DNA from: Candidatus Poribacteria bacterium | Lineage (GTDB): Bacteria; Poribacteria; WGA-4E; PCPOR2b | Length of the DNA stretch: 64,000 nucleotides | Direction of reading: 5' to 3' | Assembly (NCBI GenBank): GCA_965220385.1 | Contig: OZ244825.1 | Coordinates: forward strand, 323,143 to 387,142 | In this document: positions 1 through 61,018 of the stretch, piece after piece | Layout: each line of letters starts with the position of its first letter | Numbering within the stretch: the first letter of the stretch is position 1 | The notes under the pieces: model-generated | Databases searched by the model: none | What the model saw: the letters and a program-made list of their open reading frames with translations, nothing else | What the model was told of the DNA's origin: nothing | Position numbers and translations under genes: made by a program

Positions 1-234
1 TTTCTTAATCAAAAGTGGTAGGAATGCGCCGTATGCCGTAACTGCCGCATACCGCGACCTTTCCTAAGTGTTGGTTTTGAGCCTTCAACTGCATAAGTCG
101 TAGGTCATTAGCCGTCTGCAAGATGAAAGCGCGGGCTGTTTTTTCTGGATTCACCCTACATCTTATGACATAATATAAGCGATAGGGGCTGACGCGTCAT
201 CGGCGAAATCATAAAACCCACGCAAGCCCTATTG

Positions 235-257
235 TAGGTCGAGATTCATATCTCGAC
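235..257. repeat. REP-like hairpin element, family A (GTAGGTCGAGAT-TCAT-ATCTCGAC), copy 1 of 4
   Basis: Near-identical copies at 235-257, 10923-10946, 12657-12680 and 60996-61018. 8-bp perfect stem GTCGAGAT/ATCTCGAC with a 4-nt loop, headed by GTAG. Confidence 0.8.
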
Positions 258-1084
258 ACCTACTGCGTGTTGACATTTTGATGTTGCTAATTAGCAAACA
301 CTGTAGTCAGCGGGAAATCTGAAATGTAGCGCGAACTGTTAGTTTGCGTAGTGAGGGACCGCACTCTGATGGCCAGCACCGCCCCTCGCGCGGTTAGAAA
401 AGTTCCTTCCCGGTCACGCCTGCCCTCGGAACGGGGGAACGGACGATTCATCAGGCCTGTCCTGCCTGCTCTCGGCTTGTCGGAGTCCCGCTTGTCCCGA
501 TCCTATCGGGGGATTCATCGGGGGGATTTATCGGGGCGGCGACATGTGTGTCGTAGATCTGGTTATGTTTATAGTAAAAATTATAATTACTGATATATTT
601 GAATAATAACCACTGGTGCTAGTTTGCAGCTGTTGATAACGTCAAAGGTGATGCCCCGATAAATCGGGACAGGCTGTGAAACATCAAAACTATTGGCTTT
701 TGGGTGCCTTTAGCCCCGGAGGGGCGGCATGTTTATAGTACACGGATAAATAAATATCCCAAAGCCCCGGTTTCGAATCCCGATTTATCGGGGAGGGGCG
801 ACATGTGCAGCCGAAGGGTAGAACCAATGAGCTACCCTAATGCATCAATGAACGCTTCAACAATGTGGGAAAGATCCTCTCACTAACTAGCACTAAAGGT
901 CAATATGTATACCTGTTTGTATTGTTCACCATAATTGGGTATTGAGTATGAAAATTCGACCTGCGGGCTAACTACAACCTCCGTCGATATAGACGATAAA
1001 AGCTGATGGCCCGTCAAGCAATCCATAAAACCTGTATCAAACTGTTTGCGTGAACGAAATGTAGAGAATCATTGGGAGAACACT

Positions 1085-4756: not shown

Positions 4757-5692
4757 ATGATTGGTTCAATTGAAGAAGTACAAGAGACATTTGTGGAACA
4801 GAATTACATTGCCGATCGTGCGTTGGCAACAACAATCTACCTCGCCCATCACCTGAAAAAACCGATCTTCCTTGAAGGTGAGCCCGGCGTCGGTAAAACA
4901 GAGGTGGCAAAAGTCCTGGCGAGCGCGACCGGTGGAAATCTAATCCGTTTGCAATGTTATGAAGGACTGGATGTGAACAGTGCGTTGTACGAGTGGAACT
5001 ACACGAAACAACTCCTCCAACTGCGCATCGACGAAATGCGGGGGATGGACAAGGAACAGATCGGTGCTGATATCTTCAGCGAGGAGTTTCTGCTAAAACG
5101 TCCCCTCCTTGAAGCTATTCAGACTGACGGCGCTGCGGCACCTGTACTTCTCATCGATGAGGTAGACCGGAGTGATAGCGAATTTGAGGCGTTCCTTCTC
5201 GAAATCCTGTCAGATTTTCAGATTACCATTCCGGAGATTGGAACAATTCGTGCCAGACATATTCCTTATGTGGTGCTAACCTCAAACCGCACACGGGAGA
5301 TCCACGAAGCCCTGAAACGCCGCTGCCTCTATCAATGGATAGATTATCCGTCGGTGCAGAAGGAATTCGCAATCGTTAAAGCTAAGCTGCCGCATATCGA
5401 CGAAATGCTTGCCCAGCAACTTTGTAGCCTGATGCGGGTATTTAGGGAAGGTGATTACTACAAAAAGCCGGGAGTCGCAGAAACATTGGATTGGGGACTA
5501 GCCCTTATCGCATTGGGTAAAGACGGATTAGATCCCGACATCGTTGATGAAACACTCGGTTGTATTTTCAAATATCAGGATGATATTCAACGGGCACGAG
5601 ATGTGGGCTTGGACAAGATGGTAGATGGTGCCAAAAGTGATTCCGAGGTGACTAACGCCGAAAAGGTAGATTGGCGCTATATGCGTGGATAG
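4757..5692 (+). CDS. MoxR-family AAA+ ATPase (CoxD-like)
   Basis: Walker A GEPGVGKTEVAKVLA. Walker B LLIDEVDR. MoxR-like length (311 aa) and a downstream VWA partner. Confidence 0.8.
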   Translation: MIGSIEEVQETFVEQNYIADRALATTIYLAHHLKKPIFLEGEPGVGKTEVAKVLASATGGNLIRLQCYEGLDVNSALYEWNYTKQLLQLRIDEMRGMDKEQIGADIFSEEFLLKRPLLEAIQTDGAAAPVLLIDEVDRSDSEFEAFLLEILSDFQITIPEIGTIRARHIPYVVLTSNRTREIHEALKRRCLYQWIDYPSVQKEFAIVKAKLPHIDEMLAQQLCSLMRVFREGDYYKKPGVAETLDWGLALIALGKDGLDPDIVDETLGCIFKYQDDIQRARDVGLDKMVDGAKSDSEVTNAEKVDWRYMRG

Positions 5693-5731
5693 AATCAGGC
5701 TTACACAATTTTCCTGATTATCCTTAAAGAT

Positions 5732-5836
5732 TTATGGTGAATTTTAAAAATAAATAAACAGTTTCACCCGCCCGGTAGGTGCGGTTTGTAACCGCACCGG
5801 TTTGGAGTGTCTCATTAATTCTATAAACTACCATAG
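5732..5836. repeat. ~105 bp intergenic element, copy 1 of 2 (near-identical to 47289-47395). Contains a GGTGCGGTT-TGT-AACCGCACC hairpin.
   Basis: TTTATGGTGAATTTTAAAAATAAATAAACAGTTTCAcCCGCCCGGTAGGTGCGGTTTGTAACCGCACCGGTTTGGAGTGTCTCATTAATTCTATAAACTACCATAG. The two copies differ at a single position. Confidence 0.85.
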
Positions 5837-5859: not shown

Positions 5860-7014
5860 ATGACAGATCAACAGCCTCTCCTTAAAGAAATCACCGCTTT
5901 CTGCCGGTTGCTCAAGCAGACAGGCGTGAATGTTACCACCACGAATCAAATTAGTTTCTGCCGAAGCGTTGAATTAATCGATATCGGACGACAACAAGAC
6001 TTCTACGACGCTGCCAAGATGAACCTGATCGCCAATGAATCGGATCGAGAGGCATTTGATACCCTTTTTGACTGGTTCTGGCGGTATCCCCGTCCCGACC
6101 CCCAGGAGATGGGGATTGACACGGAAGAAGAGCAGACGATGTCCCTTGAGGATCTAATGAACGCCGAAGAGACAACGGTGAACCTGGACCAGTGGACGGA
6201 GATGGAGGACGATAGTGAGGAAGGGGAGGAGGACACAGTTGCTTATAGTGCCGAGCAGGTTTTGACCCAGAAAGATTTCGGTCAATTCACGGCAGAGGAG
6301 ATGCAAAAGGCGCAGGAGGTTATCGCTAAACTTGTTCCACTGTTGGCAACCAAGCTGAGCCGCCGAAAAAAAACCAGCACCAAAGGGAAGACAATCGACT
6401 TTCGGCAGAGTTGGCGTAAAAACATCGCCTACGGCGGGGAACCACTGAAATTAATCCGGAAGCGCCGAAAGATCAAAAAGAACAAGATCTTACTGCTCTG
6501 TGATGTCAGCGGATCAATGGACTACTATTCCACCTTCCTGATTCAATTCATCTACGGGATGCAACAGGCGCTTGAAGAGGTCGAGGTAGCGGTTTTCAGT
6601 ACCGAACTCACGAACATCACCGGACTGCTCCGTCGCAAGGGACTTGAAGAAGGACTCCGTGAAGTCGCGCAGGTTGTCCCTGATTGGTCAGGGGGAACGA
6701 GGATCGGAGAAAGTATCGTTGCCTTTAACCGAGAGTTTGGTCGCTCTTTCTCTGCTTACAGGACCGTCGTTATTCTCATCAGCGACGGTTGGGATCGAGG
6801 CGAAGCCGATATCCTTCAGAAAGGGATGGAGGTGCTCCACCGCCAAGCGTATAAGTTAATTTGGTTGAATCCGCTACTCGGCAGCGAAGGGTATCAGCCA
6901 ATTTGTCGCGGTATCCGTACCGCGCTGCCGTATGTTGACTACTTCTTACCCGCTCACAATCTGGAAAGCCTTGTCCAGCTGACGAAAGTATTGACACCGA
7001 TCTGGACAGATTAA
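5860..7014 (+). CDS. VWA-domain protein (CoxE-like), partner of the MoxR ATPase
   Basis: MIDAS motif LLCDVSGSMDYY in the C-terminal half. Acidic low-complexity N-terminal region. Classic MoxR-VWA gene pair. Confidence 0.75.
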   Translation: MTDQQPLLKEITAFCRLLKQTGVNVTTTNQISFCRSVELIDIGRQQDFYDAAKMNLIANESDREAFDTLFDWFWRYPRPDPQEMGIDTEEEQTMSLEDLMNAEETTVNLDQWTEMEDDSEEGEEDTVAYSAEQVLTQKDFGQFTAEEMQKAQEVIAKLVPLLATKLSRRKKTSTKGKTIDFRQSWRKNIAYGGEPLKLIRKRRKIKKNKILLLCDVSGSMDYYSTFLIQFIYGMQQALEEVEVAVFSTELTNITGLLRRKGLEEGLREVAQVVPDWSGGTRIGESIVAFNREFGRSFSAYRTVVILISDGWDRGEADILQKGMEVLHRQAYKLIWLNPLLGSEGYQPICRGIRTALPYVDYFLPAHNLESLVQLTKVLTPIWTD

Positions 7015-7127
7015 ATAGATGTGTCAAAGAAGGAAAAGCAGGGGAGGCGAGCGAAATCCAATTTTGCAAGTGAGCAACGCTTGTCCATCGGATAGAATGA
7101 GAGGGGGCGAGACAAACAACTTTACGG

Positions 7128-7691
7128 ATGACGCATTACGTTTCACATTTCACGTTCCACGTTTCGCGCAGTTGGATCCTATGTGTCCCACTCGTTCTAC
7201 TGACCTGCGCCTCCTCACCGCTTATCGTTCCAGAGTACGGGATGATAGCCCCCGATTTTACCCTCAAGGACCAGAATGACATAGAAGTTCAGTTGAGCAA
7301 ATTCCGCGGGGAGAATGTGTTGCTATTCGGTTTTGATAAGGATAGCATCGACCGTGGAGGAGCTTGGCTCAATCTCCTTGTGGAACGATATAATGAGCGG
7401 CTGCGGATTCTTCCTGTCGCCAATGGAGCGAGTCTTCCTTTCTCTGCACGTCTGTTTCTGCGGGGCAAGATGAAAGCTGAATTCCAGGACGCTGCTGAAG
7501 AATTTAATCTGTCAAGTTTCCTCTTGGACTGGACAGGCGAAGTCTCTCGTCAGTATGGCATACCGCTTGAGACCCCGACAGTCGCGCTGATTGACCGCAC
7601 AGGTCGCATTCAATTGGTGCATCCGCTTCCACCACTAACGGCGGACGCGGCGCGTGCAACCTTTGATCGGATTGATAAACAGATCAAGTGA
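7128..7691 (+). CDS. Thioredoxin-fold (redoxin/AhpC-TSA-like) protein lacking the catalytic Cys. The start is uncertain: the annotated N-terminus overlaps a TTTCACG heptad repeat array.
   Basis: APDFTLKDQNDIEVQLSKFRGENVLLFGF resembles the peroxiredoxin/TlpA N-terminal strand-helix region, but no CxxC or peroxidatic Cys follows. The true start is probably downstream of 7128. Confidence 0.45.
   Translation: MTHYVSHFTFHVSRSWILCVPLVLLTCASSPLIVPEYGMIAPDFTLKDQNDIEVQLSKFRGENVLLFGFDKDSIDRGGAWLNLLVERYNERLRILPVANGASLPFSARLFLRGKMKAEFQDAAEEFNLSSFLLDWTGEVSRQYGIPLETPTVALIDRTGRIQLVHPLPPLTADAARATFDRIDKQIK
7131..7170 (+). repeat. TTTCACG heptad tandem repeat array with conserved lead-in CGCATTACGTTTCAC
   Basis: TTTCACA-TTTCACG-TTCCACG-TTTCGCG. 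Related arrays at 12721-12743, 14262-14300 and 42083-42125. Confidence 0.7.
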
Positions 7692-7719: not shown

Positions 7720-7745
7720 GTAGGAGTAACCCTTGTGGTTACCCT
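7720..7745. repeat. REP-like hairpin element, family C (GTAGGRGYAAYCCTTGTGGTYRCCC)
   Basis: GTAGGAGTAACCCTTGTGGTTACCC. Stem GTAACC/GGTTAC. Related copies at 36298-36322 and 47431-47455. Confidence 0.7.
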
Positions 7746-10922: not shown

Positions 10923-10946
10923 GTAGGTCGAGATTCACATCTCGAC
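10923..10946. repeat. REP-like hairpin element family A, copy 2
   Basis: GTAGGTCGAGATTCACATCTCGAC, one mismatch to copy 1. Intergenic, after the SPFH gene. Confidence 0.8.
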
Positions 10947-11037
10947 CCTCCAATGCAGGAGCGGGGGCTGCACTCAATGATATCAGGATCTCGTTCGCGC
11001 CCAGAATGCGTGGGTTGTCAGAATCAACCTGCGACGG

Positions 11038-12458: not shown

Positions 12459-12483
12459 GTAGGGGCGAGGTTCTCTCGCCTAC
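12459..12483. repeat. REP-like hairpin element, family B (GTAGGGGCGAGGTTCYCTCGCC)
   Basis: Copies at 12459-12483 and 36234-36256. GGCGAGG/CCTCGCC stem. GTAG head. Confidence 0.7.
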
Positions 12484-12656
12484 CGAGCACTTTCTAATCC
12501 AGTTTTTCTGAACCTCTATATCTGTAGAGGATATCATTACGATGAACCCGTATAGCCCCGTCATTTCCCTACACGCCCAAGCCCCAGAGGGGCGACATGT
12601 GTTTTTGGTCCATTGTCTGATGCTTGCAGCGCTTCGTCAATTGGAAAGAGTAGCCT

Positions 12657-12680
12657 GTAGATCGAGATTCATATCTCGAC
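12657..12680. repeat. REP-like hairpin element family A, copy 3
   Basis: GTAGATCGAGATTCATATCTCGAC, intergenic. Confidence 0.8.
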
Positions 12681-12699
12681 AAAAAGCGGCAATTACTCC

Positions 12700-12790
12700 A
12701 ATGAACCAATGTACTTCTTACGCATTACGTTTCACGTTTTACTATTAATGAACCCATGGACTAATACACTAATGAACCAACATCTACCTC
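12700..12790 (+). repeat. Composite repeat: AATGAACC(A) modules plus a TTTCACG heptads unit. Related to 14236-14300.
   Basis: CCAATGAACCAATG...CGCATTACGTTTCACGTTTTACT...TAATGAACCCATGGACTAATACACTAATGAACCAA. Confidence 0.65.
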
Positions 12791-14048: not shown

Positions 14049-14189
14049 TTAGGACTTACGCAGTTAAACGGTCAAAGCCCTGTAGTTCGGCGATTCATCG
14101 CCGCAGAACACTGTTCCCCAAGCCCGTTTCTTAATCCCGATACATCGGGATTAAGAAACGGGCAACTATAATCGCAATGCGTAAGTCCT
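14049..14189. mobile_element. MITE-like element: 12-bp perfect terminal inverted repeats (AGGACTTACGCA ... TGCGTAAGTCCT) flanking ~117 bp that contain a 19-bp perfect palindrome
   Basis: Left TIR 14049-14060, right TIR 14178-14189. Internal palindrome CCCGTTTCTTAATCCCGAT-AC-ATCGGGATTAAGAAACGGG at 14123-14162. Second small hairpin CGGCGATTCATCGCCG. No ORF. Confidence 0.5.
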
Positions 14190-14235: not shown

Positions 14236-14300
14236 TCCAATGAACTAATGAACCCATGAACCAATCATTTTCACGTTTCACGCATCACGTTTCACGCACT
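14236..14300 (+). repeat. Composite repeat: AATGAAC modules plus TTTCACG heptads
   Basis: CCAATGAACTAATGAACCCATGAACCAATCATTTTCACGTTTCACGCATCACGTTTCACGCACT. Confidence 0.65.
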
Positions 14301-19186: not shown

Positions 19187-19582
19187 GATAAGTTGATATT
19201 ATGGTACGGAATACAAAAAAAGACAACAGAATCTTATGGGATGCCTCAGAGGCATAGCTGTGTTATCCAGAGTTATTCAGTTTTTGGCAAAACGGTGCCG
19301 TGTGTAGAAGCGCGGTTCCCGCGCCCTACTTCAACAGACGGACGAGGAGACCTCGCTTTACAATCTCTTTACCAAGCTATCAGAAAATTCTTGCCTTCTG
19401 TTGCAGGATTTGTTACGCTAATCCAAGTTACTAAGGCGCATTGACATTTTGCTGTTACCAACCTGGTTTTTGGTAGATCTCTCAAAGTAGTACCCCCACT
19501 CTATTGTACCGTCGTATGCCTCATAGTTACGGCATACAGCGTATACCTACCACTCTGTGACAACTTGCACTAAAGGATAGCT

Positions 19583-36233: not shown

Positions 36234-36322
36234 GTAGGGGCGAGGTTCCCTCGCCCAACGGGTTGGACAACCCCGCCCCTACAGGAATTAACCCAATGTA
36301 GGGGCAACCCTTGTGGTTGCCC
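36234..36322. repeat. Cluster of REP-like elements: a family B copy, a GTAGGGGCG...CGCCCCTAC hairpin and a family C copy (GTAGGGGCAACCCTTGTGGTTGCCC), downstream of the DUF4276/ATPase pair
   Basis: Three consecutive GTAG-headed palindromes within 90 bp. Family C copies also occur at 7720-7745 and 47431-47455. Confidence 0.7.
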
Positions 36323-41973: not shown

Positions 41974-42082
41974 GACCCCACTTACGCCTCAACCCCAGCA
42001 AACTTCGTCATCGATTCATATCAAGAAATCCTAAACCGTGGGGGCGGGGTTACCCCGCCCATGCTTGCTAATGAACAGATTG

Positions 42083-42125
42083 TTTTCACGTTTTACGCTT
42101 CACGTTTCACGGCCCGTTTCACGAG
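42083..42125 (+). repeat. TTTCACG heptad array upstream of the DppB-like permease
   Basis: TTTTCACG-TTTTACG-CTTCACG-TTTCACG-gcccg-TTTCACG. Confidence 0.65.
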
Positions 42126-47288: not shown

Positions 47289-47395
47289 GTTTATGGTGAA
47301 TTTTAAAAATAAATAAACAGTTTCATCCGCCCGGTAGGTGCGGTTTGTAACCGCACCGGTTTGGAGTGTCTCATTAATTCTATAAACTACCATAG
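47289..47395. repeat. ~105 bp intergenic element, copy 2 of 2
   Basis: One mismatch (C/T) to copy 1. Lies between the SBP gene start and the BMC-H gene. Confidence 0.85.
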
Positions 47396-47430
47396 CTTCC
47401 AAAGTCCCTTAGGGGGTTCCCTTGATCACC

Positions 47431-47455
47431 GTAGGGGCAATCCTTGTGGTCGCCC
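47431..47455. repeat. REP-like hairpin element family C copy
   Basis: GTAGGGGCAATCCTTGTGGTCGCCC. Confidence 0.65.
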
Positions 47456-47779
47456 TTCTGTGGGAGTCCCCTCCTGGACTTGCCTGTCCCGTCTGCTCCC
47501 TTGGTCTTGGTACGGACGATTCATCGGGTAGCAAGGCATTGGAAGTGTCTAAGTGATTCCAAAATCTAACACAATTAAGTTGACAGAATATCTGTGCTTC
47601 GGCGATTATGTCAATAAAAAAGTAGGATCAGATGAAATTCATGATCCCTAAGATGAGTCCTGAAAATGCTTGAATCAATCAGGTGATTGTGATATACTGC
47701 TATAACAAGTTCAAAATTATCTGTGATATTAAGGTGAGGCGCAAGCGATAACTGTCAATCAGGAGGATACATATCGATT

Positions 47780-48112
47780 ATGGCTGGCGAGGCTTTAGGT
47801 TTAGTCGAAACGAGAGGGCTTGTTGGAAGTATCGAAGCCGCTGACGCGATGGTCAAAGCCGCAAATGTTCAACTTATCGGTTATGAAAAGATTGGTGGCG
47901 GATATGTCACAGTCATGGTTCGTGGTGATGTCGGGGCTGTCAAAGCTGCCACAGATGCCGGGGCAGAAGCGGCCGCACGAGTCGGAGAGGTCGTTTCCGT
48001 CCACGTTATCCCACGGCCACACGCAGATGTTGAATCGGTTTTACCCGTACAAGAACAGGCCGAAGATAGTACGCTGACAATTGATATCGCTAACGCCGAC
48101 GCAGCGAATTGA
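47780..48112 (+). CDS. Bacterial microcompartment shell protein, BMC-H (PduA/EutM-like hexamer)
   Basis: Near-canonical Pfam00936 sequence: [77 protein letters not shown]. Confidence 0.92.
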
Positions 48113-48133
48113 TGGAGTTAGGAAAGATAGCGG

Positions 48134-48871
48134 ATGAATGACAAGGCACTCATTGAACTGGTCACTCATAAAGTGCTTGAACAATTGGAGCAGGTTGCTT
48201 TGAATCCCGATGCAATCGGGAGCGAAGAACCCTGCGGTGGCTGCGCCCTGCGAACCTGTGAGGCTGGAAATCGTGCCTGTGACGTTGTCGTTCAACAGCA
48301 GAAAATTCCCGTTGGTGTCTCAGCACGACATGCACACGTAACCCAAGAACACTTGGAGATTCTGTACGGCGAAGGACATCAATTGACTGTCCACGCCCCC
48401 CTATACCAGCCCGAAGCATTCGCGGCGAAGGAGACATTAACCGTTGTTGGGCGACGGATGCAAGCAATCGAAGGGCTCCGGATTCTCGGTCCCGTCAGAG
48501 ATTATTCTCAAGTCGAGCTTGCCCAGACCGATGCCATTCGCTTGGGACTGAATCCACCCATTCGCGATTCGGGAGATCTCGCCGGTTCAGAGTCGATTGT
48601 ATTGGTCGGTCCCAAAGGATCTGTTCACCTACAAGAAGGTGCAATCTGTGCGACGCGGCATATTCACATGACCCCTCAAGATGCGGAAAACTGGAGGATA
48701 CGTGAAGGGGATCTGTTAACAGTGCGTATTCCCGGCGAGCGAGCACTGACCTTTGAAAACATCCATCCGAAAATATCATCAAGTTATGTGCCGCAGATGC
48801 ACCTTGACACGGATGACGCTAACGCTGCCGGTTTACAGGGAGGAGAAGGCGTCGAGCTGCTGAGAGGTTAG
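48134..48871 (+). CDS. pduL: PduL-type phosphotransacylase (phosphate propanoyl/acetyltransferase) with an N-terminal encapsulation-peptide-like amphipathic helix
   Basis: Two PduL repeats with IPVGVSARHAHVT and ICATRHIHMTPQDA motifs. C-terminal MHLDTDDANAAGL. Residues 4-20 (ALIELVTHKVLEQLEQV) form an amphipathic helix, then a Gly/Pro-rich linker. Confidence 0.85.
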   Translation: MNDKALIELVTHKVLEQLEQVALNPDAIGSEEPCGGCALRTCEAGNRACDVVVQQQKIPVGVSARHAHVTQEHLEILYGEGHQLTVHAPLYQPEAFAAKETLTVVGRRMQAIEGLRILGPVRDYSQVELAQTDAIRLGLNPPIRDSGDLAGSESIVLVGPKGSVHLQEGAICATRHIHMTPQDAENWRIREGDLLTVRIPGERALTFENIHPKISSSYVPQMHLDTDDANAAGLQGGEGVELLRG

Positions 48872-48881
48872 GGGTATCTAA

Positions 48882-49643
48882 GTGAGGTTCAGTCCAGAAA
48901 TCATTCGGCGGATTGAAGCAGAAGTTGCGAAAGTGCTTGAACAACAAGGAACCACCTTGACTGCTCCCCAATCCGATAAACGGGTTCTGGCGATATTCGA
49001 TGCCGCTCAAATTGATCTCACGGTTCCGCTGGCACAACTCGATAAATGCATCCAAGGTGGTTATGCTGTTACAGCGATTGTGTCAGATATAGCGGCTAAG
49101 CTCTTGGACATCTCCCGTATCCGGTCCGCGTGCGGCAATGAACAAGTTTTCATAGCGAGTGAAATTACGAACCTTCAACCCTTTACAGAAGGGTTCTCCG
49201 CAATCGTTGTTCCCACGCTATCTTATGCGATAGCAGCGAAGTTAAGTTTGGGCTTGGCAGATACGCCGTGCGCTTATCTTGTGTTCCAAGCGTTGGTTCG
49301 CGGAAATAGGGTGCTCGCAACAGTTGATGGCTTTGGGGGCTCAGACCAATCTGAAATCCCATCCGAGATCTCAAAGTTGGGGCAAGATTACATCGCAACG
49401 TTGTCGGACTTCGGTGTTCAATTTGTTGCCATGGATCGACTTGCTGAAGCGATTTTAAGCGACGGTATACATCGTTTTAATCAGGCTAACCCAAGGGGTG
49501 GGCGAAACATTATCACCGCTTCGGTAATCGCCGAACTTCCACCAGATGCGCGCGAATTTCGTTACGCGAATCCGGCGATTATCACGCCGCTTGCACGAGA
49601 TTTGGCAGCTCGAAAGGGAATTCGGCTCGTGGCGATGGACTAA
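48882..49643 (+). CDS. Hypothetical protein co-transcribed with BMC-H/PduL (GTG start inferred from the ORF track)
   Basis: 253 aa ORF directly after pduL. alpha/beta-like composition (VLATVDGFGG, GIRLVAMD). No recognised motif. Confidence 0.4.
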   Translation: MRFSPEIIRRIEAEVAKVLEQQGTTLTAPQSDKRVLAIFDAAQIDLTVPLAQLDKCIQGGYAVTAIVSDIAAKLLDISRIRSACGNEQVFIASEITNLQPFTEGFSAIVVPTLSYAIAAKLSLGLADTPCAYLVFQALVRGNRVLATVDGFGGSDQSEIPSEISKLGQDYIATLSDFGVQFVAMDRLAEAILSDGIHRFNQANPRGGRNIITASVIAELPPDAREFRYANPAIITPLARDLAARKGIRLVAMD

Positions 49644-49917
49644 AAAATCAATATCTGGTATCGCTTTTACCACAGCTGCGTATCGCTATTGCTACGGTTT
49701 TCGCTCTACAGATGCCGTGTCCTTTGCTATTATAGACAACTCAGCGGTTAAATCAACGATGGCATCTAACTTGCTACTGATACACATTACGAAATCTATT
49801 GGTGGATAACGTCAAGTTCGCTCATGTCGGCTGATTGGCATGAGCGAACTCCTTAGTATCATGTGATCGAGTCAAGAAAATCCGCTTTGTTAAATGCACC
49901 CAAAAGGAGGGGTTGCA

Positions 49918-51573
49918 ATGAAATTCCAGGTTCCGTTCTCCATATGCCTACTGCTGACAATTCTGCTACTGATGCTCACGCCCCATACTGTTCCAGCACA
50001 GTATGATTACGACTACTTCTCAGATCGACTCAGTCGCGAACACCGGGACGCAGGCGATGTTGAGGACTGGATCGAGCGCGGCAATGCGACCGTCACCGCC
50101 AGCCCTCGTTTTGAAAGTGGGGTCCGCCTGGCAGCGTGGGCAAGTGACTCTAAGAACGCGGAGAGCTACGAATTTGCAATAGCCAGTGCAATCTATCTCT
50201 TCGAAATTCCGCGACGGGCTCAGTACGTTGAGATTTTGGTGCGCTACCGAGGCGAACCACACCAAGCTGATTTTGATCACGAGGACATCGCAGGGCGTGT
50301 TTGGATTCGTAATACCAAACGTGAATATTCTCGCAGGCAGTATGATAATAACGACGAAGAAGAAACCCTGTACGGCGATACCTTCTTTTTGCGTGCAAAA
50401 CGTCGCTCAGAGACCATAAAAGTGGCGACAGCAGGACGTGTCGAGAATGGCATCCTTGAAATGCACATTGTTGCCGAAAATGGTGAGCAGCTTGATATCG
50501 AATATGTTGATGTTGCAACCTATCAAAGACAGCCGGATGTTCGTGTTATACACCGCTATGCTCGGGATTACCACTGGAAGCCTTGGAATCGATATACCTA
50601 TCTCTATTTTTATGATGGTCCCTTCTACTACTGTACAGACTTAGGTTACTATATTCGATGGAGCTATCCAGTTTATGACCATCACTACGTCACGATTCGT
50701 CGTACCTATGGCACCTATCTCCACGACTACTATCGTCGTTACCCGCGTCGGTACCACCGAAATTCCTACTATCACGCAGGTGTCCATGTTGTTCATAAAT
50801 CTCCTAAGACGCAACGGTTGAATCGCTGGACGAATGCGCATGAAACTACCCGCCGCGAATATTCGCGGAGCCGATTGTCGGTGACTACATCCAAAACGAA
50901 CAGAGCTAATGTGCGTACCCGGGTGCGCTCCCTTATCACAGAACACCGTCAGACACCGGTTCGTACAGATAGAGTTATCCAGCAGTCGGCGGTTTCTCGA
51001 AAACGAGGCCTTCGTGACACAAGACGTGAACCAAACACAGCCATAGAGCAGCAGCGCAATAACCAGCGATCTTCGCGTGATGTATCCTCGCGACCTTACC
51101 GTGCAACCCAGCAGATCCAAAAACGTAAACGCTTAAGTACTGTCGAGAGGGACCCCCGTTCTAATGTACAATCTCGTAATGTCCCGCCTCAAACCCGCCA
51201 GTATGATCGCTATCGGTTTGCGCCAAAGAATCAGCGTTCATCGGACAATGACAATGAGGTGTCGACCCGGTCAAACGCAGAACGACGAACGCGCCTTTAT
51301 AACCGAACCCAGTCTTCGAGAAGTAGACTGAGTACACCACCTTCACGCAGCCGATCCTCAACCGTCAAACAGAAGACAGAAACACGCAGCCGGGTTAAGC
51401 AATCCAGGTCTCGTTCATCTACGTCTCGTTCATCTACCGCGACTACTCCACGTACGCAAAGACCGACAACTAAGCAAACGACGTCGAGTTCAAGCAGCAA
51501 AGATGATGATGATGAAAAACGGGAACGTAGTCGCACTACCACAAGAACCCAAACACGTAGTCGAAGAAAATAG
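49918..51573 (+). CDS. Secreted protein with a Tyr/Arg-rich core and a ~250 aa Arg/Ser/Thr-rich low-complexity basic tail. Start refined to MKFQVPF.
   Basis: Strong RBS AAAAGGAGGGG before the ATG at 49918. Signal peptide MKFQVPFSICLLLTILLLMLTPHTVPAQ. Residues ~330-550 are >50% R/S/T/Q/K, ending in poly-Ser and DDDDEK. Rho-independent terminator downstream. Confidence 0.6.
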   Translation: MKFQVPFSICLLLTILLLMLTPHTVPAQYDYDYFSDRLSREHRDAGDVEDWIERGNATVTASPRFESGVRLAAWASDSKNAESYEFAIASAIYLFEIPRRAQYVEILVRYRGEPHQADFDHEDIAGRVWIRNTKREYSRRQYDNNDEEETLYGDTFFLRAKRRSETIKVATAGRVENGILEMHIVAENGEQLDIEYVDVATYQRQPDVRVIHRYARDYHWKPWNRYTYLYFYDGPFYYCTDLGYYIRWSYPVYDHHYVTIRRTYGTYLHDYYRRYPRRYHRNSYYHAGVHVVHKSPKTQRLNRWTNAHETTRREYSRSRLSVTTSKTNRANVRTRVRSLITEHRQTPVRTDRVIQQSAVSRKRGLRDTRREPNTAIEQQRNNQRSSRDVSSRPYRATQQIQKRKRLSTVERDPRSNVQSRNVPPQTRQYDRYRFAPKNQRSSDNDNEVSTRSNAERRTRLYNRTQSSRSRLSTPPSRSRSSTVKQKTETRSRVKQSRSRSSTSRSSTATTPRTQRPTTKQTTSSSSSKDDDDEKRERSRTTTRTQTRSRRK

Positions 51574-51592
51574 TGCTAACCTGCAACAAAAA

Positions 51593-51636
51593 TAAACAGT
51601 TAGGGAGGAGTGCGTTCCTTAACTGTTTTTTTTGTT
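51593..51636 (+). terminator. Rho-independent terminator after the RS-rich secreted protein gene
   Basis: AACAGTTAGGGAGG...CCTTAACTGTT stem followed by TTTTTTTT. Confidence 0.7.
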
Positions 51637-51644
51637 GACAAGAC

Positions 51645-52241
51645 TTGCGCGTTTTGCTATCATACGCCTTGGAAAAGAGGTGTAGGAATTTGACCGGATC
51701 TCTAGTGAAGTTATTGGGGTTTGCGCTGGTCGCCCTCGCTCTATTTTTATTTTCGCGAGGACAACTCAGTGCTGCGCAGCCAGATGAGAATCTGCGCCTT
51801 GTGTCGCCAGTAGGTGCCATAGCCCGTTCTGCAGTTGTGCCCGGTTGGGGGCAGTTTCACGCCCGTAACCGTTTGCTGGGTGCTACATCCTTCGTAGGAA
51901 CAAGCGGATTCCTTGTTGGTGCGTTGATTACTCACCAATCCTTCCGAGATGTCTACGACAATCAGTATGTGCCCGTTGCTTCACAAGACCCTAACTCTCC
52001 GGAAGCGCTTTTTCAATACAATCGAGCGAATCAACGCTACAAGTTGCGACAGTTCTTTCTCTTCGCTGCAGCGGGGGTATGGGCCTATAGCTTGATTGAT
52101 TCCTATGTTGGAGCAAATCTGTACAATGCAGAGGCAAAGGCGAACCAAATTATTGATGAGATGAAGCAGATTGAAGAGTTGAACTTACAGCTTGACGTAA
52201 CTCCAACACAACTTCAACTGGATATCGTCAAATTCTTTTGA
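51645..52241 (+). CDS. Membrane protein with a PGWGQ motif (DUF5683-like); start uncertain
   Basis: Hydrophobic segment LLGFALVALALFLF. VVPGWGQFHARN motif. Second TM segment TSFVGTSGFLVGALI. Confidence 0.4.
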   Translation: MRVLLSYALEKRCRNLTGSLVKLLGFALVALALFLFSRGQLSAAQPDENLRLVSPVGAIARSAVVPGWGQFHARNRLLGATSFVGTSGFLVGALITHQSFRDVYDNQYVPVASQDPNSPEALFQYNRANQRYKLRQFFLFAAAGVWAYSLIDSYVGANLYNAEAKANQIIDEMKQIEELNLQLDVTPTQLQLDIVKFF

Positions 52242-52284
52242 AAGTCTAGCAAACACAGCAATTCCTTATGGAGGAAGTTCAGCC

Positions 52285-52866
52285 ATGCTAAAAGTATTTA
52301 CCAAAATTACTGGGCTATTGCTCGTTTTTAGTTTGCTTATAAGTTGTGGGGATGTAAGTAGTGTTACCAAAGTTCAGTCAAAGGAACTTGTCCTAATTAA
52401 CCAAGTTCTGAAAAACTGGCGTGAAGGATATCAGAGCGAAGACCTTGATAGGTATATGAGTGCGTTTTGGGAAGATGGGTTTCTTTACGTTTCAGATATG
52501 GGAACTGATGCTGATAAGACGGATGACGTTATATTTGACGATATCCGGGACGAAAGGGATTCAGCGCAGCGCGTTTTTGCCAGATTCCAGGATATTGAGA
52601 TCGAGTTGTCCGAACCGCCCGAGATACAACTGAATGCAGACAGGACACGAGCGGAAGTCAGAAATCATTATCGGATCCAAGGGTTTGTCGCGGACGGCGA
52701 TTCACTCGAAGGGGGATTTACCGGCTGGTTCGCAGAAGGGAATAATATCTTTACCTTTGAATTGAGAACCAATACGGGTTCCGATACACAAGAGTGGCGT
52801 ATCACTGAATGGAGGGATGAAGCGTATAGCGAAGAGCAGATTAGAGCCGCTAACAACTTGCAGTAA
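52285..52866 (+). CDS. Lipoprotein, NTF2-like/DUF4440-like fold
   Basis: Signal plus lipobox LLISCGD. NWREGYQSEDLDRYMSAFWEDGFLY resembles SnoaL/DUF4440-like proteins. Confidence 0.45.
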   Translation: MLKVFTKITGLLLVFSLLISCGDVSSVTKVQSKELVLINQVLKNWREGYQSEDLDRYMSAFWEDGFLYVSDMGTDADKTDDVIFDDIRDERDSAQRVFARFQDIEIELSEPPEIQLNADRTRAEVRNHYRIQGFVADGDSLEGGFTGWFAEGNNIFTFELRTNTGSDTQEWRITEWRDEAYSEEQIRAANNLQ

Positions 52867-60944: not shown

Positions 60945-60995
60945 AACGTCCTGCTTTTCTTTAACATCTACAACTTTCCGCTTTCAAGGAGCCTG

Positions 60996-61018
60996 TAGGT
61001 CGAGATTCATATCTCGCC
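60996..61018. repeat. REP-like hairpin element family A, copy 4
   Basis: GTAGGTCGAGATTCATATCTCGCC, between the NtrC-like gene and the rhomboid gene. Confidence 0.8.

What the first reader, a model, noticed from the sequence alone, without database searches (positions are those of the whole stretch)
5732..5836. Near-identical ~105 bp structured intergenic element present twice (also 47289-47395)
The two copies are 41.5 kb apart and differ at one base. Each contains a strong hairpin (GGTGCGGTT-TGT-AACCGCACC, nested inside CCGGT...ACCGG) and A/T-rich flanks. Each sits just upstream of a + strand gene: the VWA gene, and the BMC-H gene after a 380 bp gap. One-mismatch identity over about 105 bp implies recent copying (a MITE-like mobile unit) or strong purifying selection on an sRNA or regulatory element.
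Basis: seen in the sequence. Interest (0 to 1): 0.5.

Follow-up and report, generated by a model that had tools for sequence, protein, structure and literature searches.

The report
Small mobile DNA repeat (MITE)
The repeated ~105-base element is a miniature, non-coding "jumping" DNA element (a MITE) that has recently inserted at TA sites in genomes of the uncultivated phylum Poribacteria; it is a new family of a well-known kind of element, not a conserved regulatory RNA.

Summary
Window 5731-5836 and 47290-47395 share 106 nt with one mismatch, which never occurs in shuffles.

The unit is a 99-nt non-coding body (5735-5833; 47294-47392). It has A/T-rich imperfect terminal inverted repeats (17/27) and a G/C-rich 9-bp central hairpin, and TA flanks it on both sides.

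Both insertions have orthologous empty sites carrying a single TA:
- Copy 1: a contig 99.5% identical in its flanks reads exactly "window minus body minus one TA".
- Copy 2: the element is absent from a 92-94% identical lineage and present in 98-99% identical ones.

Copies 99-100% identical lie in different intergenic contexts in at least three Candidatus Poribacteria MAGs. Sister subfamilies with the same termini but different cores occur in those MAGs and in JGI metagenomes.

It is therefore a MITE with a TA target-site duplication and a YTAR-like target. It is most likely moved in trans by an IS630/Tc1-mariner-type DDE transposase, with IS5/IS427-type as the alternative. No matching autonomous element was found.

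The sRNA/regulatory-element reading is rejected. There is no Rfam hit, the element is present/absent between near-identical strains, and a natural 16-nt deletion removes the hairpin.

This is a new member of a known kind, of modest interest. The REP-like, covarying, sometimes tandemly multiplied core hairpin is the only unusual feature.

The parts
5733..5734 (+). Copy 1, left TA of the target-site duplication
   Evidence: The empty allele in L008 has a single TA here. The reconstructed empty site is found exactly in L008.
5735..5833 (+). Copy 1, 99-nt MITE body (TGGTGAATT...AACTACCA)
   Evidence: It lies between the AAA_5 (CoxD/MoxR-like) gene 4757-5692 and the VWA_CoxE gene 5860-7014.
5735..5761 (+). 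Copy 1, 5' terminal inverted repeat (TGGTGAATTTTAAAAATAAATAAACAG)
   Evidence: 17/27 identical to the reverse complement of the 3' end. This end type is conserved across subfamilies.
5774..5798 (+). Copy 1, REP-like core module: GGTAGG head plus a 9-bp stem with a 3-nt loop (stem-loop at 5778-5798)
   Evidence: The same module type occurs outside the TIRs in L004 5576-5630.
5807..5833 (+). Copy 1, 3' terminal inverted repeat (GTGTCTCATTAATTCTATAAACTACCA)
5834..5835 (+). Copy 1, right TA of the target-site duplication
47292..47293 (+). Copy 2, left TA of the target-site duplication
   Evidence: The L011 orthologue reads gcagttTAgtttcc, with a single TA.
47294..47392 (+). Copy 2, 99-nt MITE body with one private SNP (T at 47326)
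   Evidence: It lies between the start of the SBP_bac_5 gene (47271, - strand) and the BMC gene 47780.
47333..47357 (+). Copy 2, REP-like core module (stem-loop at 47337-47357)
   Evidence: L013 and L014 carry a 16-nt deletion here.
47393..47394 (+). Copy 2, right TA of the target-site duplication
570..933 (+). Probable larger relative of the same superfamily: a 360-nt body between TA flanks, with TIR-like ends scoring 18.6 and 23.8 bits
   Evidence: PWM scan and direct reading. No empty site was obtained, because both look-ups failed.
47545..47573 (-). Degenerate solo TIR of the same superfamily (25 bits), probably a relic of an older insertion next to copy 2

Best explanation
The repeat is a miniature inverted-repeat transposable element (MITE). 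It is a 99-nt DNA transposon with no coding capacity. It keeps only the two roughly 27-bp A/T-rich terminal inverted repeats that a transposase recognises, around a G/C-rich hairpin core.

A DDE transposase encoded elsewhere binds both ends, excises or copies the unit, and integrates it at a TA dinucleotide in a YTAR-like context. The TA ends up duplicated on both sides.

Shown here: the inverted repeats, the TA duplication, empty versus filled alleles, dispersed near-identical copies in several Poribacteria genomes, and a family of subfamilies that share termini but differ in core.

Inferred: the mobilising enzyme is of the IS630/Tc1-mariner type. That is the family whose hallmark is TA duplication and whose known bacterial MITEs (RUP, Correia) have the same size and layout. 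About 0.5 of the probability goes to this family, about 0.3 to an IS5/IS427-group (PIF/Harbinger-like) enzyme, and the rest to others.

Also inferred: when transcribed as part of the coxD-like/coxE-like message (copy 1) or the SBP_bac_5 5' leader (copy 2), the unit forms a long hairpin that could affect mRNA processing or stability. Nothing here shows that it has such an effect.
For: (1) Copies: 106 nt are shared with one mismatch, and no shuffle matched.

(2) Termini: every v1 copy reads [TA]TGGTGAATT...AACTACCA[TA] in unrelated flanks. L003 has AA on both sides, as expected of a duplication at a non-canonical target.

(3) Empty sites:
- L008 has flanks 99.5% identical over 2.2 + 3.0 kb, and it contains exactly the window sequence with the body and one TA removed.
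- L011 is 92-94% identical and has a single TA at the copy 2 site, while the 98-99% identical L012-L014 are filled.

(4) TIRs: 17/27 identical. The - strand folds end to end at -32.2 kcal/mol, z -3.8.

(5) Distribution:
- The exact 43-mer core occurs in 6 loci of 3 Candidatus Poribacteria MAGs, four of them in one MAG, and 5 of the 6 are 99-100% identical over the 103-105 nt aligned; the sixth (L005, OZ220744.1) is the v2 variant, identical only over 54 nt.
- Short-read contigs break inside or at the edge of the element (L007, L009, L010, L016-L018), as expected of a multi-copy repeat.

(6) Family: subfamilies with the same two end types but different cores occur at L005 7026-7158, L004 7254-7441, L002 3155-3291, L031 2731-2833 and in L019, L026 and L037. 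Most are TA-flanked.

(7) Targets: flanks give YTAR (TTAG, CTAA, and so on) in nearly all cases.

(8) All 11 insertions that could be scored are intergenic, against 11.6% non-coding sequence.

(9) Literature: bacterial MITEs are defined by size under 200 bp, TIRs, a terminal TA, A+T richness, target-site duplication and long stem-loop transcripts. RUP is linked to IS630-Spn1 by TIR similarity and TA targets (PMC2229807). Correia and RUP are called IS630-derived in PMC2817692.
Against: - No autonomous element with matching TIRs was found. The 365 kb of held sequence has no IS630/mariner-like ORF, though that tblastn used remembered query sequences and is a weak test.
- The only transposase seen near a copy is an IS5/IS427-like one with quite different TIRs (TAGGnnnTGTTGACATTT).
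- TA duplication cannot be told apart by sequence alone from insertion of a unit ending in TA next to a fixed YTA target. Only L003 (AA/AA) and the long TIRs argue for the duplication.
- No expression data are available.
Confidence: 0.93

Rival explanations
1. A conserved small RNA or cis-regulatory element (hairpin attenuator, terminator or protein-binding site), kept nearly identical by purifying selection upstream of the VWA and BMC genes.
For: - There is a strong central hairpin, and the whole unit folds better than shuffles (z -2.6 on +, -3.8 on -).
- The hairpin stem shows two compensatory pair changes between subfamilies (T-A to C-G, and C-G to A-T).
- Several copies lie 20-45 nt from a start codon.
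Against: - No Rfam family matches at gathering score, and none better than E = 2.4 in a permissive scan.
- No sigma-70 promoter or intrinsic terminator consensus lies within the element.
- Presence or absence varies between strains with 99.5% identical flanks.
- Neighbouring genes are unrelated and in varied orientations.
- A 16-nt deletion removing most of the hairpin persists in two assemblies.
- The TA duplication and the TIRs are not explained by this reading.
Confidence: 0.04
2. A REP/REPIN-type element, or an IS200/IS605-derived palindrome-associated element, moved by a Y1 (HUH) transposase such as a RAYT. It would insert next to a fixed YTA target without duplication.
For: - The core module GGTAGG + 9-bp palindrome has the architecture of RAYT-associated REPs (a GT[AG]G head followed by a palindrome; table 1 of PMC2817692).
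- The same module occurs outside the TIRs as an inverted pair in L004 5576-5630.
- GTAG is the joint top (with TAGG) head tetramer of perfect hairpins in the window, at 6 of 16.
- By sequence alone, 'YTA + unit ending in TA' equals 'TA duplication'.
Against: - The unit that moves includes roughly 27-bp A/T-rich terminal inverted repeats of two conserved types, which REP/REPIN and IS200/IS605 derivatives lack.
- One subfamily (L002 3155-3291) and the window 570-933 relative have the TIRs but no such REP-like core.
- L003 has AA at both junctions. That is one event under duplication but two coincident changes under the Y1 model.
- No RAYT gene was seen in the held sequence, although it was not specifically searched for.
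Confidence: 0.03
3. An assembly artefact, namely a collapsed or mis-joined repeat placed twice on this contig.
For: Short-read assemblies do break at the element (L007 has an N gap; L009, L010 and L016-L018 have contig ends there).
Against: - Both junctions of both copies are reproduced with unique flanks in independent assemblies (ENA L009 and L012-L014, plus the NCBI MAGs).
- The two window copies differ by a SNP.
- The empty site is exact to the base.
Confidence: 0.01

Closest known systems
RUP (repeat unit of pneumococcus), the IS630-Spn1-associated MITE of Streptococcus pneumoniae
   Same: About 100 nt (RUP is 107 bp). It is non-coding, intergenic and multi-copy, has terminal inverted repeats and TA target/termini, and is proposed to be mobilised in trans by a DDE transposase (PMC2229807).
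   Different: There is no sequence similarity and the phylum is different. RUP's link to IS630-Spn1 rests on TIR similarity, and no such partner was found here. RUP TIRs are short (9 bp in the review's table) against about 27 bp here. RUP has no REP-like G/C hairpin core.
Correia / NEMIS elements of Neisseria
   Same: Size classes of about 107 and about 155 bp that differ by an internal segment. TIRs of 24-26 bp beginning TATAG..., TA duplication, long-hairpin transcripts, frequent location close to gene starts, and filled/empty site polymorphism (PMC2229807; TIR sequences from PMC5039591).
   Different: TIR resemblance is weak. Anchored identity is 10-14 of 20, reached by 0.3-34% of shuffles, and the comparison was chosen post hoc. 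The cores are unrelated. The IHF site, promoters and RNase III processing known for Correia were not tested here. It is not a member.
Stowaway-type (Tc1/mariner-derived) and Tourist-type (PIF/Harbinger, IS5-related) MITEs of eukaryotes
   Same: Short non-autonomous units with TIRs, a TA (Stowaway) or TWA (Tourist) target, high copy identity and a preference for positions near genes.
   Different: This is a bacterial host. Which of the two transposase superfamilies applies is unresolved. The TSD here is TA (2 bp), which fits Stowaway/IS630 better than the 3-bp Tourist TSD.
REP / REPIN elements mobilised by RAYT transposases
   Same: The core module (a GTAGG head plus a G/C-rich palindrome of about 25 nt) matches the REP architecture listed in PMC2817692. 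The genome also carries many solo GTAGG hairpins.
   Different: The mobile unit as a whole has long A/T-rich TIRs and a TA duplication, which REPs and REPINs lack. No RAYT was identified.

Membership tests
Bacterial MITE (non-autonomous DDE transposon) | Small (under about 300 bp) with no coding capacity | tested here: met
   The body is 99 nt. Its only ATG-initiated frame is 7 codons (read directly). No ORF of 60 aa or more lies within it.
Bacterial MITE (non-autonomous DDE transposon) | Terminal inverted repeats | tested here: met
   17/27 identical. The unit folds end to end, z -3.8. Both end types are conserved in 7+ subfamily members.
Bacterial MITE (non-autonomous DDE transposon) | Target-site duplication, shown by filled versus empty sites | tested here: met
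   TA is duplicated. L008 contains the reconstructed empty site exactly, and L011 is empty at the copy 2 site.
Bacterial MITE (non-autonomous DDE transposon) | Multiple dispersed, highly similar copies | tested here: met
   There are 2 copies in the window plus 6 loci in 3 MAGs; 5 of those 6 are 99-100% identical and L005 is the v2 variant, and all have different flanks. The total per genome was not countable.
Bacterial MITE (non-autonomous DDE transposon) | A cognate autonomous IS with matching TIRs | tested here: inconclusive
   No inverted TIR pair at IS spacing was found in 365 kb of held sequence. No IS630/mariner-like ORF was found. Whole genomes could not be scanned.
IS630/Tc1-mariner-derived MITE | 2-bp TA duplication at an NTAN/CTAG-like target | tested here: met
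   TA appears at both ends in nearly all members. The flanks give YTAR. That IS630 itself targets CTAG is from my own knowledge.
IS630/Tc1-mariner-derived MITE | TIRs similar to those of an IS630-family element, and a DDE_3-type transposase in the host | not testable with these tools
Held sequence gave none.
IS5 (IS427 group)-derived MITE | TIRs matching an IS5-family element present in the host | tested here: not met
   The IS5-like element L006 269-1080 (DUF4096 + DDE_Tnp_1, TA-flanked) has TIRs TAGGTTCTGTTGACATTT / TAGGGCGTGTTGACATTT, unlike TGGTGAATTTTAAAAA. Other IS5 relatives are not excluded.
Correia/NEMIS | The 26-bp Correia inverted repeat (tatagtggattaa...) | tested here: not met
   Only 10-14 of the first 20 nt are identical, and 0.3-34% of shuffles do as well.
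REP/REPIN (RAYT-mobilised) | GT[AG]G head plus an imperfect palindrome of 20-40 nt | tested here: met
   This holds for the core module only, GGTAGGTGCGGTTTGTAACCGCACC (compare PMC2817692).
REP/REPIN (RAYT-mobilised) | No long A/T-rich TIRs and no target-site duplication, with an associated RAYT gene | tested here: not met
   The whole unit has roughly 27-bp TIRs and a TA duplication. The RAYT association is not testable.
Described structured RNA (Rfam) | Match to a covariance model at the gathering score | tested here: not met
   There were 0 hits in the window at gathering score. The best permissive hit had E = 2.4.

The most novel reading that the evidence does not exclude
The MITE family may act as a vehicle for a REP-like hairpin. 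The TIR pair is constant. The core is a GTAGG-headed palindrome drawn from the same pool as the genome's solo REP-like hairpins. It is present in 1 to 3 tandem copies, is swapped between subfamilies, and keeps its stem through compensatory changes.

That would mean one of two things. Either two normally separate repeat systems (DDE-type MITEs and REP/RAYT-type palindromes) are physically coupled in Poribacteria, or the hairpin is a selected payload (an mRNA-stabilising or processing signal, or a protein-binding site) that the MITE spreads to gene boundaries.
Probability: 0.15. Interest if true: 0.5.

Novelty: new member of a known kind. Interest (0 to 1): 0.25.

Why it matters
It shows that a DNA transposon family is currently or very recently active in natural populations of Candidatus Poribacteria, an uncultivated phylum. 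Insertions are polymorphic between strains that are 99.5% identical.

Practical consequences:
- The element breaks short-read assemblies of these genomes, so contigs end in or at it.
- It provides strain-level presence/absence markers.
- It sits inside an operon (AAA/CoxD-like to VWA_CoxE) and in the leader of a solute-binding-protein gene next to a microcompartment operon, so annotators should not mistake it for a regulatory RNA.

Conceptually it adds little. MITEs with TA duplications are well known in bacteria.

Tried and rejected
- Rfam at gathering score on the whole window, and a permissive scan on the element: nothing. tRNA/tmRNA scan: none.
- Sigma-70 promoter and intrinsic terminator scans around both copies: none inside the element. 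A manual look for an outward -10/-35 on the - strand found TAAAAT, but with a 15-nt spacer to a 4/6 -35, so it was rejected.
- JGI metagenome scan with a degenerate 5' TIR: 0 hits. A second scan with a degenerate 3' TIR gave 27 loci, about 9 of them true members and the rest chance hits, for example L043 inside a coding ORF.
- IMG/VR scan: 0 hits. Plasmid and phage collections: no match.
- Search for the autonomous partner:
  - A PWM of the TIRs over all held loci found only MITE-sized pairs.
  - The L040/L042 solo 3' TIR has no ORF upstream.
  - tblastn with remembered IS630 and Mos1 transposase sequences found nothing relevant.
  - Pfam on ORFs near copies found only an IS5-like transposase with unrelated TIRs.
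- Empty-site test for the 570-933 relative: the TPP-enzyme protein is not on record with either start.
- Literature: no paper links Poribacteria with MITEs, and none mentions the sample or assembly accessions.
- A formal covariation count on alignment A1 was not run. MAFFT mis-registers the 5' arm when loop length differs, so pairs were tabulated by hand.

Full report
**1. Observation**

The 106-nt string at 5731-5836 recurs at 47290-47395 on the same strand with one mismatch (C5767 versus T47326). No dinucleotide-preserving shuffle gave any match. The 9-bp/3-nt-loop hairpin is present at 5778-5798 and 47337-47357.

Some details need correction:
- The outer 'CCGGT...ACCGG' overlaps the inner 3' arm and cannot nest around it.
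- The A/T-rich flanks are terminal inverted repeats. The - strand folds into one long imperfect hairpin from end to end (-32.2 kcal/mol, z -3.8; the + strand gives -27.2, z -2.6).

**2. What moves, and its exact ends**

An exact 43-nt core search of one-genome-per-species GTDB contigs found six loci, all in Candidatus Poribacteria MAGs:
- four in jk18x1bzbins.78;
- one in jk18x7bins.5;
- one variant in the 6.47-Mb chromosome OZ220744.1.

Five of these copies are 99-100% identical to the window copies over 103-105 nt and sit in entirely different flanks; the sixth (L005) is the v2 variant treated in section 4. Lined up, they read [TA]TGGTGAATT...AACTACCA[TA]. In L003 both junction dinucleotides are AA.

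Looking up the exact flanking proteins in public assemblies gave orthologous loci.

For copy 1:
- Contig L008 (Logan SRR13587057) is 99.5% identical to the window over 2.2 kb on the left and 3.0 kb on the right.
- It reads ...ccttaaagattTAgtaaattc.... The window sequence with 5735-5833 and one TA removed is found in it exactly.
- The intergenic spacer is 66 nt there against 167 nt in the window. The difference of 101 nt is the 99-nt body plus 2 nt of duplication.

For copy 2:
- The more distant orthologue L011 (92-94% identity) reads gcagttTAgtttccaaag, a single TA.
- L012-L014 (98-99% identity) carry the element.

So both window copies are insertions with a TA target-site duplication. Copy 1 still segregates among near-identical strains.

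Short-read contigs end inside or at the edge of the element, or bridge it with Ns (L007, L009, L010, L016-L018). That is the expected behaviour of a multi-copy repeat.

**3. Anatomy**

- Body: 99 nt.
- 5' TIR: TGGTGAATTTTAAAAATAAATAAACAG.
- 3' TIR (reverse complement): TGGTAGTTTATAGAATTAATGAGACAC.
- The two TIRs are 17/27 identical, with 19% and 30% GC. The core is 60% GC and the window 49%.
- The core carries GGTAGG followed by the 9-bp palindrome.
- There is no ORF, no Rfam match, no promoter or terminator consensus, and no match in the plasmid, phage or IMG/VR collections.

**4. A family, not a single repeat**

Elements with the same two end types but different interiors occur close to the first hits and in JGI metagenomes:
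- L005 7026-7158: 133 nt. The 3' half is 100% identical to the window element, with an extra 5' hairpin.
- L004 7254-7441: three tandem ~40-nt copies of a GGTAGGCGCTGTTTCYAACTGCGCC module.
- L002 3155-3291: a different G-rich core.
- L031 2731-2833: 103 nt, with the same layout as the window element.
- L019/L035, L026 and L037.
- Solo ends in L006, L039 and L040/L042.

Most are TA-flanked. The bases next to the TA are mostly Y on the left and R on the right, so the target looks like YTAR.

A PWM built from 13 ends also picks out further matches in the window itself:
- a TA-flanked pair at 570-933, which is a 360-nt relative;
- a degenerate solo end at 47545-47573.

All 11 insertions that could be scored are intergenic, although only 11.6% of the window is non-coding.

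**5. Mechanism**

The combination below is the definition of a bacterial MITE (PMC2229807):
- small size and no ORF;
- two conserved, non-identical inverted ends;
- TA duplication;
- precise empty sites;
- near-identical dispersed copies;
- subfamilies that share only their termini.

Such units are moved in trans by a DDE transposase that recognises the TIRs.

TA duplication at an NTAN-type target is the hallmark of the IS630/Tc1-mariner group. The classical bacterial MITEs of this size, RUP and Correia, are attributed to that group (PMC2229807; PMC2817692). I therefore take an IS630-type enzyme as most likely. This step is inference.

I could not find the autonomous partner:
- There are no TIR pairs at IS spacing.
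- There is no IS630/mariner-like ORF in 365 kb of held sequence. This is a weak test, made with remembered query sequences.
- The only transposase seen near a copy is an IS5/IS427-like element, L006 269-1080 (DUF4096 + DDE_Tnp_1), which also appears to be TA-flanked. Its TIRs (TAGGnnnTGTTGACATTT) are unrelated. This shows that a second TA-duplicating family may be present, which keeps an IS5-type enzyme as a live alternative.

**6. Rivals**

A conserved sRNA or regulatory element is excluded as the primary explanation for three reasons:
- the presence/absence polymorphism;
- the unrelated genomic contexts;
- a 16-nt deletion between CGGTTTG direct repeats that removes most of the hairpin in two independent assemblies (L013, L014).

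A REP/REPIN or IS200/IS605-type (Y1) mechanism is suggested by the GTAGG-plus-palindrome core. It does not account for the long A/T-rich TIRs, for TIR-bearing subfamilies without that core, or for the AA/AA junctions of L003.

An assembly artefact is excluded by independent assemblies with unique flanks.

**7. The one unusual feature**

The core hairpin has the architecture of RAYT-associated REPs (table 1 of PMC2817692). Supporting observations:
- The same module occurs outside any TIR pair as an inverted couple in L004 5576-5630.
- The window holds many other intergenic GTAGG hairpins. Of 16 perfect hairpins with stems of 8 bp or more, 6 have a GTAG head, the joint commonest head tetramer with TAGG.
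- Between subfamilies the stem changes at two pairs on both sides (T-A to C-G, and C-G to A-T). Two members carry single mismatches, and the apical GTT...AAC is constant.

This could mean that the hairpin is a selected payload, or that the MITE repeatedly captured REP-like units. The evidence is thin: five distinct stems, aligned by hand.

**8. Comparison with known elements, and novelty**

The element works like RUP, Correia or Stowaway-type MITEs. It is not a member of any named family:
- Its TIRs resemble the Correia repeat only weakly. Anchored identity is 10-14 of 20, reached by 0.3-34% of shuffles, and the comparison was chosen post hoc.
- No paper in the library links Poribacteria and MITEs.

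It is a new family of a well-known kind.

**9. Possible effects (inferred only)**

- Copy 1 lengthens the spacer inside an AAA(CoxD/MoxR-like)-VWA_CoxE pair from 66 to 167 nt and ends 24 nt before the VWA start codon.
- Copy 2 lies about 20 nt upstream of the start of the SBP_bac_5 gene. That gene's leader or promoter must therefore traverse or start in the element, which in that orientation forms the -31 kcal/mol hairpin.
- Whether this changes expression is untested.

**10. Verdict**

Confidence that this is a MITE with TA duplication is about 0.93. Confidence that the mobilising enzyme is specifically IS630-like is about 0.5. Interest is low to moderate.

Noticed in passing
window 570-933: A TA-flanked, 360-nt non-coding unit with ends like the MITE superfamily's (TATAGTAAAAATTATAATTAC... 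/ ...TTGTATTGTTCACCATA). It lies upstream of the TPP-enzyme gene. The interior is packed with short G-rich motifs (GATTTATCGGGG, GGGGCGGCGACATGTG).
   Followed up: partly
window 47396-47573 (relic TIR at 47545-47573, - strand); L011 2540-2610: The spacer next to copy 2 ends in a degenerate TIR of the same superfamily and contains REP-like and 'GGACGATTCATCGGG' motifs. The L011 orthologue carries an extra ~63-nt insert here. This divergent promoter region looks like a repeat insertion hotspot.
   Followed up: partly
window 234-258, 7720-7744, 10923-10948, 12459-12480, 12649-12682, 14082-14105, 19304-19325, 36234-36257, 36298-36322, 47429-47455, 60995-61018: Many intergenic GTAGG-headed G/C-rich palindromes (REP-like) of several stem types, for example four copies of TGTAGGTCGAGATTCAYATCTCGAC. 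GTAG is the joint commonest head tetramer (with TAGG) of perfect hairpins in the window. No RAYT gene was looked for.
   Followed up: partly
L006 269-1080; L004 3608-3896; window 262-285: An 812-bp IS5/IS427-like insertion sequence (DUF4096 + DDE_Tnp_1, 262 aa) with 18-bp TIRs TAGGnnnTGTTGACATTT and apparent TA flanks. A fragment 89% identical lies 160 nt from the MITE copy in L004. A solo TIR-like GCGTGTTGACATTT sits next to a REP-like hairpin in the window.
   Followed up: partly
L013 2560-2575 and L014 (orthologues of window 47341-47356): A 16-nt deletion between CGGTTTG direct repeats removes most of the core hairpin of copy 2 in two independent sample assemblies. This looks like a slippage variant across the palindrome.
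   Followed up: no
L004 7254-7441: A subfamily member with three tandem ~40-nt copies of the REP-like module between normal TIRs, showing that the core can be amplified in place.
   Followed up: partly
window 7107-7168, 12704-12742, 14243-14296, 42071-42111: Repeated CACGTTT(C/T)AC-type short tandem motifs (families D6 and D8), located just upstream of or at the 5' ends of ORFs on both strands. Their meaning is unknown.
   Followed up: no
window 14122-14163: A perfect 19-bp stem with a 4-nt loop (GCCCGTTTCTTAATCCCGATACATCGGGATTAAGAAACGGGC) in the spacer between two - strand genes.
   Followed up: no
L004 1139-3262: The MITE copy in MAG jk18x7bins.5 lies just upstream of a WYL/WCX-domain regulator gene and a Cas6 gene. 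A CRISPR-Cas locus is therefore probably adjacent.
   Followed up: no
window 47780-52866: A bacterial microcompartment cluster downstream of copy 2: BMC-H, PTAC (PduL-type phosphotransacylase), then several ORFs with no Pfam match (48882-49643, 49894-51573, 52285-52866).
   Followed up: no
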